A stretch of DNA of 64,000 bases from Paraspadella gotoi (Eukaryota > Animalia > Chaetognatha): the NCBI GenBank assembly GCA_051294375.1, contig CM119270.1, positions 99,355-163,354 of the forward strand, read 5' to 3'. A model generated the notes under the pieces. The model was not told the origin of the DNA, did not search any database, and saw nothing but the letters and a program-made list of their open reading frames with translations. The position numbers were made by a program, and so were the translations under genes. The first letter of the stretch is position 1; every line of letters begins with the position of its first letter. Positions 9,501 to 43,119 of this stretch are shown here, piece by piece.

Positions 9501-12500
9501 TTTTCTATTTCTTTCTTTTGAGTCTTTCCGCTCATTCCTTTCTTTTCTTTCATTCCTTTCCTTTCATTGGTTTTATCCCCTTTCCTTCTTTTTCCTCCAT
9601 TTATCTCTCTGACCATTGAGATCAATTCAACTTCAAAGATAAAAAAAATATATTGTTGCGGCGATATTGATGACCTAGAAATATAATTATAATTATAGTT
9701 TTTAACTATATAAAATTTTAAATTTAAAATTATATTTTATATATTTATAAGTAAAATATAATAAATTCTATTGTATTATGACTAAATTTGTATTAGTCAG
9801 GAAGGGAACCTATATTAATGTCTTATATAATTAAAGGATAATTTCAAACAAGCATAAATATCTGAGTATTTTTTTCTTCTTTTTATTCTCTCACTACATG
9901 GTCCCCTTAAATATCCACTAATCCCAAATGATCACATCGTTAAAATGGAATTTAGACACACTTAAGTCGTTAATACGAAGTTTATTTTTTAATTCTTTCG
10001 ATAAAGGAAGATTTGCTATTTATTGATGTGCTATTTATAGATGACTGACGCCTCAATTAGAGAAAGGAACAAAATATAAATAAAAAATACTATATTAATA
10101 AGTTATTTTAAATTTAAATATAATAATATAACTAATCATATGAAATCGGTACAACTAATATAAGAATTCTCCATTCATTTATTAAATAAGCAAACTTCCC
10201 CTAACTTTGAACAGGCTATGATAGTTTAAGGCCTCCATCACTCTTAAAATATAATGACATTGTATAACCCTGCAAGCTTTTAATGAATTCTCTTTCTTTT
10301 AATGAAGTCTCTTTCTTTTAATGAAGTCTCTTTCTTTTAATGAAGTCTCTTTCTTTTAATAAAGTCTCTTTCTTTTAATGAAGTCTCTTTCTTTTAATAA
10401 AGTCTCTTTCGCAGTCAAATTTACTAATAAATATATATATATGTAAATATACTCTTAAATGTTATCTAATCTTGTTTAAACTCACTTTACATCATTTCCT
10501 CTTTCTCTACTTCAGCGACGACCGACCATCCAACGATGACAAAGAAGTCTGTCGAGACTATCTTCGCAATGTCTGCAAAAGGGGCAAGAAATGCAAATTC
10601 TTTCATCCAGATGGAGTTCCGCCTAAAACAGCAACAGAACTCATCTTCTGTCACGATTTTCAAAACAAAGAATGTGGAAGACAAAGATGCAAGTTTATCC
10701 ATTGCAGTCGGGAAGAGGAAGAGCATTTTAGACTGACTGGGGAGTTGAAACTGACTGAGGTGAGTTGAGAGGGAGAGAGAGAGAGAGAGAGAGAGAGAGA
10801 GAGAGAATGTGAAAAAAGCGCTCCATTTTAGAAAAAAAATGATTAAATAAAAAATAAAAACTCTACAGTATGGATTTCAAAATAAATAAATGACTTTTAA
10901 CTAGTGGTGTTTATAAATGTGAAATATATCTTGTTCATCCTAGTTGACCTTTTCAGACCAGTCTTTTCACCGTTCTCCTCGCTTTCTCGTTGCTTTCTTT
11001 TAGCCGAAAACCTCGTCACTTGTTTTTCGATCATAATCGTTTCTCTGGAAAAGATCAGCCTTCTGGAGCTGTCGGTTGCTGGAATAGGTCTAAGTCAATT
11101 CTAGGTCACTCAAGTTTAGGTCTAAGTCAAATCTAAGTCACTCAAACTTAATTAAGTCTGATTCAAGTCTAAGTAACTCAAGTTTAGGTCTAAGTCAAGT
11201 CTAGGTCACTCAAGCTTAATTAAGTCTGATTCAAGACTAAGTAACTCAAGTTTAGGTCTAAGTCAAGTCTAAGTTATTTAAGTTTAGGTCTTAGTCAAGT
11301 CTAAGTCACTCAATTTTAGGTCAAGTAGAAGTCACTCAAGCTTAAGTCTGATTTAAGTCTAAGTCACTCGAGCTGAGATTGACCATTGTTCTGGTTTTTT
11401 ATTAAGGGAAAGAAAATACATTTTAATTTTCAATTTTGTATGGTTCAGCTTAGGTTTCAATCAAATAAAATGTTTAAAATTAAAAAAAATGTTAATAACT
11501 TCAACCCTTAACTTATTAAATTAGTTAAATTGATCTTCTGTCATTAATCGATGCCTAAATTCATTTAAATTCTTTCTTCCTTTTTTCCTTTCCTTTGTCC
11601 TTTCATTATTTTTTTTCCTTTCCTTTGTCCTTTCATTACTTTTTTTCTCTTTCCTTTGTCCTTTCATTATTTTTTTTCCTTTCCTTTGTCTTTTCATTAC
11701 CTTTTTTCCTTTCCTTTGTCCTTTCATTTCTTTTTTTTATTTCCTTTGTTCTTTTATTACCTTTTTTATCTTTCCTTTGTCCTTTCATTACTTTTTTTCC
11801 TTTACACTTATGATCCAGTCGGTATAAGGGCATCGTGGGTTCTGAAGATCGAACTGAACCAGGCTTGAGGCTTTGTCCATGCCCCCAAGGCGGCTTACGG
11901 CCCGTTCCTCACGATTCCCGCAGGGTAGGTACCTGGTTCGGTATTGAACCCGCCGGTACCTAGTGGTCATGAGCTGATGGCTCTTACTCAATGAGCCACT
12001 GGGGTCACAACTGGAAGTGTCATGATTCTTGGCGGAGTGAACCTAGGCCAATGCCCAACTACATTGCCCCCCAGATTGTAACCCACCCGCTGCACTGCTT
12101 CCAGTGGAGGGGAGGGGAGCCATCTTCAGCTAGCACCAAGGGCCTGGAATCAGAAGGTTGGAATACGCTCGACAGGATGGGCTCACCAGTGTGGATAAGG
12201 CGCTACGTGGGCTGAAGATGACTGTCCGTAATTTCTATAACCCCCTCTAGCAGCCATGGAACGGGTCCCTGGGCTTGGAACCAAGGCTTGAGGGTTTGCC
12301 ATGCCCCCAAGGCGGCTTACGGCGTCCCTCACGCTTCCCGCAGGGTAGGTACCTGGTGTGTTGCGATTGACAACCCGGTACCTAGTGGTCATGAGCTTGA
12401 TGGCTTTACCTCAATGAGCCACTGGGTCACAAACTGAAAGTGTCATGATTCTTGGCGGGGCGGTGAACCGTAGCAATGCCCAACTACAGTCCTTTCATTA

Positions 12501-42879: not shown

Positions 42880-43119
42880 GGCAACGGGAGGATTGCCTGT
42901 GATACCCGGGGCGCGGGGTATCTCACCAACTGGCGTAGGGGCTGCGGACCCTCAGTGACAGCCTCCTGTCACTGGCACCGTCACATTTAAGCCAGAACCG
43001 GGATAGCCAGGGATTGAACCCGGGACGCACGGATGGAATGAGATGATTTAGCCTGCTCAGCCATTGAGACGAGGCTGAGGACGGACAGCAGTGAGGCAGC
43101 TTTAAGTCTTGCTGCCACA
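42880..43119 (-). mobile_element. Family 2: tRNA-derived SINE with degenerate twister-like domain, 7-bp TSD
   Basis: A-box TGGCTGAGCAGG (43063-43052), B-box GGTTCAATCCC (43020-43010), flanking direct repeat CTAATAT (42873-42879 / 43120-43126); absent from the duplicate at ~49535. Confidence 0.8.
42922..42987 (-). ncRNA. Degenerate twister-like fold (family 2)
   Basis: UGA-CGGU-GC, P3 CAGUGACAG/CUGUCACUG, P4 AGGG/CCCU, L4 UCCGCAGC, AC, GCCA, GU, UGG. The topology fits but three conserved A residues are changed. Confidence 0.45.

What the first reader, a model, noticed from the sequence alone, without database searches (positions are those of the whole stretch)
10196..43119. Three unrelated short mobile-element families each carry a twister-ribozyme fold: a possible 'twister-SINE/retrozyme' system
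Seen: within ~33 kb, families 1 (11.8-12.5 kb, 28.8 kb), 2 (42.9 kb) and 3 (10.2, 22.4, 32.1, 42.7 kb) share no obvious primary sequence. Each has a P4 hairpin closing an 8-nt loop of the U-Y-C-N-A-A-G-Y type (family 2 has C for the first A). In the full-length copies the first half of that loop can pair with a triplet after a GA-like dinucleotide (T1), and its last two bases with an upstream GC (T2). In families 1 and 2 this domain sits about 25-40 nt downstream of a tRNA-type B-box on the same strand. Established: this is the twister architecture, and self-cleaving ribozymes process non-LTR retroelements and hammerhead 'retrozymes'. Inference: this genome hosts several independent Pol III/twister non-autonomous retroelements in two circular permutations, at different stages of decay.
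Basis: partly seen in the sequence, partly recalled or inferred. Interest (0 to 1): 0.9.

Follow-up and report, generated by a model that had tools for sequence, protein, structure and literature searches.

The report
Twister ribozymes in miniature LTR-like repeats
Three families of short repeats in an animal genome each carry a fold matching the self-cutting twister ribozyme, and the best-documented family also has tRNA-type promoter boxes and fixed, LTR-like ends, so it is likely a miniature retrotransposon whose RNA would cut itself, although neither cutting nor transcription has been tested.

Summary
The observation largely holds, but the frame changes. Rfam finds nothing at curated thresholds, only weak Twister-P5 hits on three copies (14-22 bits; cut-off 37.6). 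The best evidence comes from public contigs. The window's family-2 copy lacks 14 nt that contigs from three runs carry. Those letters supply the missing P1 strand, the U/AA cleavage site and a perfect 4-bp P2, which completes a canonical type-P5 twister core. All three families parse as type P5 with a loop-less, self-complementary P1, not as two permutations.

Family 2 is not SINE-like. It is a deeply repeated ~257-nt unit with both ends fixed, short inverted termini, a 4-bp (possibly 7-bp) duplication, internal tRNA boxes and no tail. That resembles a solo LTR of the Helenus miniature retrotransposons, in which no ribozyme is reported. Family 1 is a ~425-nt tandem with PBS- and PPT-like boxes, but its LTR end and P2 are imperfect. 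Family 3 is the weakest twister and may be a Penelope-type tail.

Best reading: an animal LTR retrozyme with a Pol III promoter and a twister instead of a hammerhead. Cleavage, transcription and the mobilising partner are untested.

The parts
42877..43119 (-). Family 2 element, single unit, 243 nt here and about 257 nt in contigs; TG...TA termini with 7-of-9 inverted repeat, flanked by a 4-bp duplication (7 bp if the last three letters are counted as target)
   Evidence: sequence
43011..43068 (-). Family 2 tRNA-type A box (43068-43056) and B box (43020-43011) with a 5-bp T-arm
   Evidence: a 10% variant at 43009 turns the T-stem G.U into G-C; no tRNA by ARAGORN
42930..42995 (-). Family 2 type-P5 twister: P5, P2', GA, T1', T2, P3, P4, L4. 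The window copy lacks 14 nt after 42973 (P1 strand, U/AA site, P2 strand)
12064..12488 (-). Family 1 full unit (425 nt): TG start, tRNA boxes, twister, CA|TGG junction at 12257/12256, 193-nt body ending in a G6 tract
12261..12341 (-). Family 1 type-P5 twister fold; predicted cut between 12319 and 12318; P2 only 2 of 3 pairs
11810..12063 (-). Family 1 second, tandem copy: head, A/B boxes and twister 5' half (predicted cut 11897/11896), then a ~55-nt deletion across L4, running on into the body
   Evidence: tail aligns to body, 0 of 200 shuffles as good
28745..28990 (-). Decayed family 1 relative without L4; 21 nt around the CA|TGG junction (28835-28815) are identical to the 12.3 kb copy
60..169 (-). 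Short family 1 derivative: head and A box closed by an inverted copy of the head; flanking duplication 4 or 9 bp
32060..32245 (+). Family 3, longest copy; twister-like fold 32140-32200 (Rfam Twister-P5 18.9 bits), G at the -1 position, weak tRNA-like region upstream; 5' end not defined
42684..42790 (+). Family 3, 5'-truncated copy; Rfam Twister-P5 21.7 bits at 42689-42731; predicted cut 42703/42704
10142..10300 (-). Family 3, AT-decayed copy; P2 3 of 3 but P4 closing pair lost; no Rfam hit
22356..22425 (+). Family 3 3' fragment: P4/L4 only, no cleavage strand

Best explanation
Families 1 and 2 are short non-coding repeats in which tRNA-type A/B boxes are followed by a type-P5 twister fold, and they are likely miniature LTR retrotransposons (family 2 a solo LTR, family 1 a tandem LTR-body-LTR-body array) whose predicted self-cleavage would set the ends of their RNA. 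Shown: the folds, the boxes, family 2's fixed ends and deep repetition, and family 1's tandem. Inferred chain: RNA polymerase III starts at the tRNA-like boxes and meets no T4 terminator in either unit. The twister cuts about 45-50 nt past the B box in each LTR, releasing a 422-nt monomer with no terminal repeat. A host ligase would close it. A Gypsy-type reverse transcriptase would copy the circle from the TGG box and the G tract, and its integrase would insert solo, single or multimeric copies with 4-bp duplications, as modelled for plant retrozymes. P1 has no loop in any family, so two ribozyme copies in one RNA may pair through it and cut better than a lone LTR in a host intron (speculative). 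Family 3 carries a weaker fold of the same type and probably travels by another route.
For: Twister core, family 2. The deepest X7 contig (depth 1212 of 1218) carries 14 extra nt after 42973; loose ends agree in X2 (25 contigs) and X9 (4 contigs); X1 depth across 42977 drops to 43,000 against about 700,000. Read on the minus strand they give P1, U/AA and four Watson-Crick pairs with P2', directly before the T2 GC. By my arithmetic a random 14-mer would do this about once in 10^4. T1 3/3, T2 2/2, P4 4/4 with the invariant G-C, P3 7-9 bp, P5 5 bp. The C at the A.A site is tolerated in natural twisters (PMC11662667). T1 differs among families (three triplets) yet always pairs, with the middle G kept; G48 tolerates no single change in Osa-1-4 (PMC5113685). 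Twister-P5 is the best-ranked or only Rfam match. LTR-like ends, family 2: 60 and 55 contigs (X1) and 63 and 52 (X2) leave the element at 42877 and 43119 into unlike AT-rich flanks, with ATAT next to both ends in the loose-end consensus. Animal Helenus have tRNA boxes in the LTR, 4-bp duplications, solo LTRs and tandem arrays (PMC10886601). Some start with the same letters as families 1 and 2, some end in TA, and two have a G tract spaced from the TG as in family 1. Family 1 has TGG right after a CA and a G6 tract before the second TG, and the CA|TGG box is the only long exact match to the decayed 28.8 kb copy.
Against: No Rfam hit reaches the cut-off. Cleavage, transcription and circles are untested. 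No internal region or second LTR was seen for family 2 (778 loose ends were not shown). Family 1's supposed LTR end is not an inverted repeat of its start, its TGG box matches none of the primer sites in Helenus Fig. S2 (closest is tRNA-Ser with 2 nt missing), and no reads were laid on it. Family 1 P2 is 2 of 3. The family-2 duplication can be read as 7 bp and that of the 0.1 kb copy as 9 bp, which would suit target-primed insertion. A partial tandem, an inverted end piece and insertion in a tandem repeat are Penelope-like traits (PMC8557442). The X9 variant keeps P1 by a double change but has two non-Watson-Crick positions in P2. The predicted family-1 circle is not unusually stable (z -1.55, 3 of 60 shuffles as low). 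P1 is dispensable in twisters, so a dimer is not required. The assembly is indel-rich.
Confidence: 0.45

Rival explanations
1. Real twisters in non-LTR retrozymes, like the Schistosoma tRNA-plus-hammerhead repeats: tandem Pol III units are cut to monomers and inserted by Penelope- or LINE-type target-primed reverse transcription.
For: Family 1 is a 1.6-copy tandem of 425 nt inside a tandem repeat; the 0.1 kb copy has an inverted end piece and a possible 9-bp duplication. Promoter-then-ribozyme tandems are known in schistosomes (PMC6765202). Penelope insertions look like this (PMC8557442).
Against: The end shared by family-1 copies is the 5' end of the ribozyme strand, the wrong end for target priming. 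Family 2 has both ends fixed, even depth and no listed end-to-start joint among the 15 joints shown (10 more hidden).
Confidence: 0.25
2. Family 3 is the 3' tail of a Penelope-like (Naiad) or RTE element, multiplied as truncated copies, and is unrelated in mechanism to families 1 and 2.
For: Copies share the 3' end and differ at the 5' end. It is AT-rich and has no clear B box. Unchecked earlier notes report loop-less P5 twisters in Naiad tails in other animals. Twisters are published at the 5' end of RTE elements, as type P1 (PMC8501958).
Against: The open frame over the 32.1 kb copy finds no retroelement protein: Pfam 0, word search 0, full phmmer one spurious polyubiquitin hit. A weak cloverleaf-like region lies upstream (z -1.16, not significant).
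Confidence: 0.4
3. Family 2 is a MITE of a DDE DNA transposon that once captured a tRNA-twister cassette; the ribozyme is a passenger.
For: Fixed ends, short inverted termini and a 4-bp AT-rich duplication fit a DNA transposon as well (Ginger-type TG ends are recalled, not from a call). No second LTR was seen.
Against: The inverted termini are only 9 nt and imperfect. The dominant contig form keeps every core pair, and minor variants at 43009 and 42733 strengthen stems, which suggests selection on RNA.
Confidence: 0.12
4. The folds are chance or long-dead resemblances and none cleaves.
For: All Rfam scores are far below 37.6 bits. My first descriptor also hit an AT-rich non-family site at 25376, and one of 200 shuffles gave 3 parses. 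In family 3 the majority letter at 42710 is C in all four runs (93-99.9%), which breaks one T2 pair in the canonical register; such mismatches lower cleavage.
Against: The out-of-window 14 nt complete the family-2 core. Element-only shuffles give a parse in 3 of 2000 (family 1) and 0 of 2000 (each of two family-3 copies). About 94% of natural twister candidates tested cleaved (PMC11662667 abstract; type P1 only).
Confidence: 0.1

Closest known systems
Twister ribozyme, type P5 (Rfam RF02684, clan CL00120; described via PMC5408937; Roth et al. 2014 not read)
   Same: Strand order P5-P2'-GA-T1'-P1-U/AA-P2-T2-(P3)-P4-L4-P5'; both pseudoknots; catalytic G and A; invariant G-C closing L4.
   Different: P1 has no loop (6-8 self-complementary nt where the Rfam consensus has about 20); scores 14-22 bits against a cut-off of 37.6; P2 imperfect in families 1 and 3; activity untested.
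Helenus / TRIMp3 miniature LTR retrotransposons (Kojima 2024, PMC10886601)
   Same: tRNA-type A/B boxes inside a TG-starting unit of 230-260 nt, 4-bp duplication, solo and tandem forms, G tract before the TG.
   Different: No ribozyme is reported. Twelve twister-loop motifs gave one irrelevant hit in the consensus file, and in the parts read the B box mostly lies 20-60 nt from the LTR end, often followed by a T run. Here about 110-130 nt holding a twister follow it, with no T4. Paired LTRs and a matching tRNA primer are not shown here.
Plant LTR retrozymes (Cervera et al. 2016, PMC4918200)
   Same: Non-coding, ribozyme within an LTR-like repeat, 4-bp duplication, conserved LTR-end/PBS box, solo and multimeric copies.
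   Different: Plants, type III hammerhead, no tRNA promoter reported in the passages read, circles shown experimentally.
Metazoan non-LTR retrozymes and Schistosoma SINE-like hammerhead repeats (PMC7229834, PMC6765202)
   Same: Animal, 170-400 nt tandem monomers; Pol III promoter before the ribozyme (Schistosoma); a weak helix capped by a palindrome that needs dimers (axolotl).
   Different: Hammerhead, not twister; described as lacking LTR, PBS and PPT and having longer duplications.
Twister variants of Perere-3 / RTE retrotransposons (PMC8501958; PMC7761336)
   Same: A twister in a retroelement, with a weak or absent P1.
   Different: Type P1, at the 5' end of an autonomous protein-coding non-LTR element.

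Membership tests
Twister ribozyme (type P5) | Rfam covariance model at gathering score | tested here: not met
   0 hits; 21.7, 18.9 and 14.0 bits against 37.6. The complete family-2 form is not in the window and was not scored.
Twister ribozyme (type P5) | P2, P4 and pseudoknots T1 and T2 all pair | tested here: met
   Family 2 contig form: P2 4/4, T1 3/3, T2 2/2, P4 4/4 (read by eye). Inconclusive for families 1 and 3 (P2 2/3 and 2/4).
Twister ribozyme (type P5) | Conserved N/AA cleavage strand, GA with catalytic G, G-C closing L4 | tested here: met
   12.3, 32.1 and 42.7 kb copies and the family-2 contig form; absent in the window's family-2 copy and in the 22.4 and 28.8 kb copies.
Twister ribozyme (type P5) | Covariation across many copies | tested here: inconclusive
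   T1 is compensated between families; one double change in P1 (X9, 4 contigs); two wobble-to-Watson-Crick variants. No copy alignment was available.
Twister ribozyme (type P5) | Site-specific self-cleavage | not testable with these tools
   Needs an assay.
Helenus / TRIMp3 | tRNA-derived A and B boxes inside the terminal repeat | tested here: met
   Families 1 and 2; not met clearly for family 3.
Helenus / TRIMp3 | 4-bp target duplication (animals) | tested here: inconclusive
   4 bp or 7 bp for family 2, 4 or 9 bp for the 0.1 kb copy; ATAT next to both ends in the contig consensus favours 4.
Helenus / TRIMp3 | Two LTRs around a short internal region | tested here: inconclusive
   Family 1 has two heads 425 nt apart, but the second copy is deleted across the junction; none seen for family 2.
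Helenus / TRIMp3 | PBS complementary to a tRNA 3' end | tested here: not met
   TGG box present but no match to the primers in Fig. S2; the host's own tRNAs were not available.
Helenus / TRIMp3 | Polypurine tract before the 3' LTR | tested here: met
   G6 tract ending 3 nt before the TG at 12063; short.
SINE (tRNA-derived) | tRNA head at the 5' end, simple-repeat or A tail, 5'-truncated copies | tested here: not met
   Family 2: boxes about 50 nt inside, no tail, both ends fixed.
Retrozyme | Tandem ribozymes bounding a non-coding monomer | tested here: met
   Family 1: predicted cut sites 422 nt apart, second ribozyme incomplete.
Retrozyme | Accumulating linear and circular monomer RNA | not testable with these tools
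   Only contig runs were listed.
Penelope-like (Naiad) tail | Adjoining RT / GIY-YIG coding sequence | tested here: inconclusive
   No homology for the short frame over the 32.1 kb copy; too short and decayed to exclude.

The most novel reading that the evidence does not exclude
A first animal LTR retrozyme: a Pol III-driven miniature LTR retrotransposon whose LTR carries a type-P5 twister in place of a terminator, cutting best when two LTRs pair through a loop-less palindromic P1, so that full elements make circular templates while thousands of solo LTRs in host introns stay quiet.
Probability: 0.3. Interest if true: 0.82.

Novelty: new variant of a known kind. Interest (0 to 1): 0.66.

Why it matters
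Most genomic twisters have no known job; the only demonstrated one in the papers read is 5' processing of an RTE retrotransposon. A twister inside a tRNA-promoter, LTR-like unit would join two classes described separately (Helenus/TRIMp3 and plant LTR retrozymes). It would show that the retrozyme life cycle is not tied to hammerheads or to plants, and would explain how a Pol III transcript without a terminal repeat could be copied by LTR machinery. The loop-less P5 form falls below Rfam's cut-off, so similar families would be missed in other animal genomes. The elements are short and abundant, so cleavage, dimer dependence and circle formation can each be tested in days.

Tried and rejected
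No whole genome is held. Exact 20-22 nt patterns for families 2 and 3 found nothing in viral contigs or metagenome contigs. No RNA holder was listed (X9 is only guessed to be RNA), so nothing is said on expression. HDV-like reading: rejected by inspection, since no P2 partner lies downstream of the loop. P1-type parse of family 1: 0 P2 pairs. ARAGORN: 0 genes at default; relaxed settings give 2, 33 and 131 calls across the window and are uninformative. Minimum-energy folds of family 2 (z -1.71), family 3 (z -1.16) and the family-1 circle (z -1.55) are not significant and cannot show pseudoknots. The second copy of the 41-47 kb duplication is not a clean empty site for family 2: 33 unlike letters replace the element in an indel-rich segment. 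A Penelope protein end over family 3 was not found. A carrier-exon search did not place the animal: 55-86% identity across many phyla in the 120 hits listed. Sequence look-ups among earlier findings for families 2 and 3 gave nothing.
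Full report
Setting. The window is animal DNA, rich in microsatellites (34% GC), with exons of a CCCH zinc-finger gene and a mitochondrial dicarboxylate carrier. No whole genome is held. 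Two large internal duplications are indel-rich, so letters seen in one copy only are uncertain. Nine public runs of one coded organism, from three studies, hold the region; all are contigs.

Check of the observation. Six loops of the stated type close a stem of 4 bp or more. Rfam gives 0 matches at gathering score. With E-values up to 10, Twister-P5 appears at 42689-42731 (21.7 bits, one of 59 window matches, best of 3), 32151-32193 (18.9 bits, best of 3) and 12333-12269 (14.0 bits, the only match). It does not appear on the 10.2 kb copy or on the window's family-2 copy. A type-P5 descriptor built from the Rfam line and Table 1 of PMC8501958 hit 4 sites, one of them an AT-rich non-family site, against a mean of 0.35 in 60 block shuffles. 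A stricter, symmetric version found 3 P5 parses against a mean of 0.12 in 200 shuffles (maximum 3), and gave the P1-type parse of family 1 no P2 pair. Both were written after seeing the sequences, and two of the three hits are one family. All parses are type P5, not two permutations.

The key result. Contigs of runs X1, X2, X7 and X9 were laid on 42670-43140. In the window, family 2 has P5, GA, T1', T2, P3, P4 and L4 but no cleavage strand. The deepest X7 contig (depth 1212 of 1218) has 14 more letters after 42973. Loose ends in X2 (25 contigs, agreement 0.75) and X9 (4 contigs, 0.71) show the same or a close variant, and X1 depth falls from about 700,000 to 43,000 at 42977. Read by eye on the minus strand, these letters give the second P1 strand, U/AA and four Watson-Crick partners for P2', directly before the T2 GC. 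The resulting core matches the description in PMC5408937 (passages). Its one departure, C at the A.A site, had no significant effect among natural twisters (PMC11662667, section 32). The X9 variant changes both letters of the first P1 pair and keeps it, but has two non-Watson-Crick positions in P2.

Families 1 and 3 are weaker. Family 1 has T1, T2, P3, P4 and P5, but P2 is 2 of 3 in both window copies; no reads were laid on it, so its usual sequence, ends and abundance are open. Family 3 has a 6-8 bp P5 (a variant at 42733 in 11-18% of X1/X2 depth turns its wobble into a Watson-Crick pair) and T1 3 of 3, but P2 is 2 of 4. The window copies have a G.U in T2, which is tolerated (PMC5113685, whole text). 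The majority letter at 42710 is C in all four runs (93-99.9%), which breaks that pair unless the register shifts by one. P2 faults were broadly tolerated and T2 mismatches were not. In all three families P1 is 6-8 self-complementary letters with no loop.

What the elements are. Family 2: summed contig depth is 0.26-0.92 million in X1 against 150-245 for single contigs. The tool warns that this is no copy number, but at least 55 different flanks leave each end. Both ends are fixed (42877 and 43119), with ATAT next to both in the loose-end consensus of X1 and X2. The unit starts TG, ends TA, has a 7-of-9 inverted repeat and a 4-bp duplication that can also be read as 7 bp; the A and B boxes are internal and there is no T4 run or tail. 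That is not a SINE. It resembles a solo LTR of Helenus, the tRNA-box TRIMs (PMC10886601; main text parts 1-5 of 6; supplement parts 1, 5, 6, 7 and 10 of 11), or a MITE. Family 1: two TG heads 425 nt apart; CA followed by TGG at 12257/12256; a G6 tract 3 nt before the second head; the second copy is deleted across L4 and runs on into the body (0 of 200 shuffles align as well). The decayed 28.8 kb relative keeps 21 identical letters around CA|TGG, as plant retrozymes keep their LTR-end/PBS box (PMC4918200, passages and Discussion). Against this, the supposed LTR end does not mirror its start, the TGG box matches no primer in Helenus Fig. S2, and partial tandems, inverted end pieces and insertion in repeats are Penelope traits (PMC8557442, passages). 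The shared end, however, is the 5' end of the ribozyme strand, which suits polypurine priming better than target priming. Family 3 copies share a 3' end, vary at the 5' end and have no clear B box. Unchecked earlier notes on loop-less P5 twisters in Naiad tails made me test a Penelope origin; no protein homology was found, which does not exclude it.

Mechanism. Shown: folds, boxes, ends and tandem. Inferred from the plant retrozyme model and Helenus: Pol III transcription from the boxes, a cut in each LTR, ligation of a 422-nt monomer, and copying and integration by Gypsy-type enzymes, giving solo and multimeric copies. A loop-less P1 recalls the palindrome-capped helix of axolotl hammerheads that need dimers (PMC7229834, passages), but P1 is dispensable in twisters, so dimer control is only a hypothesis.

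Novelty. Ten full-text searches found twisters in RTE retrotransposons (PMC8501958: abstract, sections 3 and 17, part 1 of section 18; PMC7761336 passages), in viroid-like circles and RNA viruses (10.1101/2022.07.19.500677, PMC13725137, PMC11721086, passages), and hammerheads in retrozymes and schistosome SINE-like repeats (PMC6765202, passages). None put a twister in a TRIM, an LTR or a tRNA-promoter element. Twelve loop motifs gave one irrelevant hit in the Helenus consensus file (line breaks can hide a motif, and 6 of 11 parts were not read). The library lacks most subscription papers and Repbase. Roth et al. 2014 and its host list, and the supplement of PMC11662667 (over 1000 species, type P1 only), were not seen and may include this animal.

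Verdict. A real, sub-threshold type-P5 twister in at least family 2 (my odds about 0.85), likely in family 1 (0.7), doubtful as an active ribozyme in family 3 (0.45). The LTR-retrozyme mechanism as a whole is 0.45. It works like a retrozyme and is built like Helenus, but is not filed as a member of either: the primer-site test failed and paired LTRs, cleavage and circles are not shown. New variant of a known kind; interest 0.66.

Noticed in passing
window 40800-47500 vs 47600-54200; 14371-16496 vs 18805-16807: A direct and an inverted duplication at 78-87% identity with more gap letters than mismatches: probably noisy long-read copies in the assembly, so single-copy details in this window need caution.
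   Followed up: partly
window 10490-10765, 21190-21290, 26100-26710, 28080-28335 (+): Exons of a CCCH zinc-finger gene (PF00642 above cut-off for the first; the name ZC3H10-like is recalled). The family copies at 11.8-12.5 kb lie between its exons on the opposite strand; the one sense copy (22.4 kb) lacks the cleavage strand.
   Followed up: partly
window 32964-36219 (+): Exons of a mitochondrial dicarboxylate carrier (PF00153).
   Followed up: yes
window 44700-44950 (+), noisy copy at 51200-51450: A 23-nt tandem repeat in which each unit carries a B-box-like motif; weak tRNA-Sec and mascRNA Rfam matches. Possibly a satellite derived from a tRNA T arm.
   Followed up: no
joints 42725->42877 and 42740->42877: Two single contigs join family 3 sequence to the end of family 2, i.e. 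family 2 inserted into family 3 copies elsewhere; family 2 may be the younger.
   Followed up: no
window 10280-10410: A 19-nt tandem repeat that grew out of the 5' end of the truncated family-3 copy; the 22.4 kb copy also starts with a short tandem.
   Followed up: no
window 38287-39280: Long inverted repeat (arms 228 and 160 nt, 80-85% complementary), possibly a MITE or fold-back.
   Followed up: no
window 12256-12247 vs 12319-12311 (-): The TGG box of family 1 can also pair, imperfectly, with the letters at the predicted cleavage site; it could block the ribozyme or allow self-priming. Speculative.
   Followed up: no
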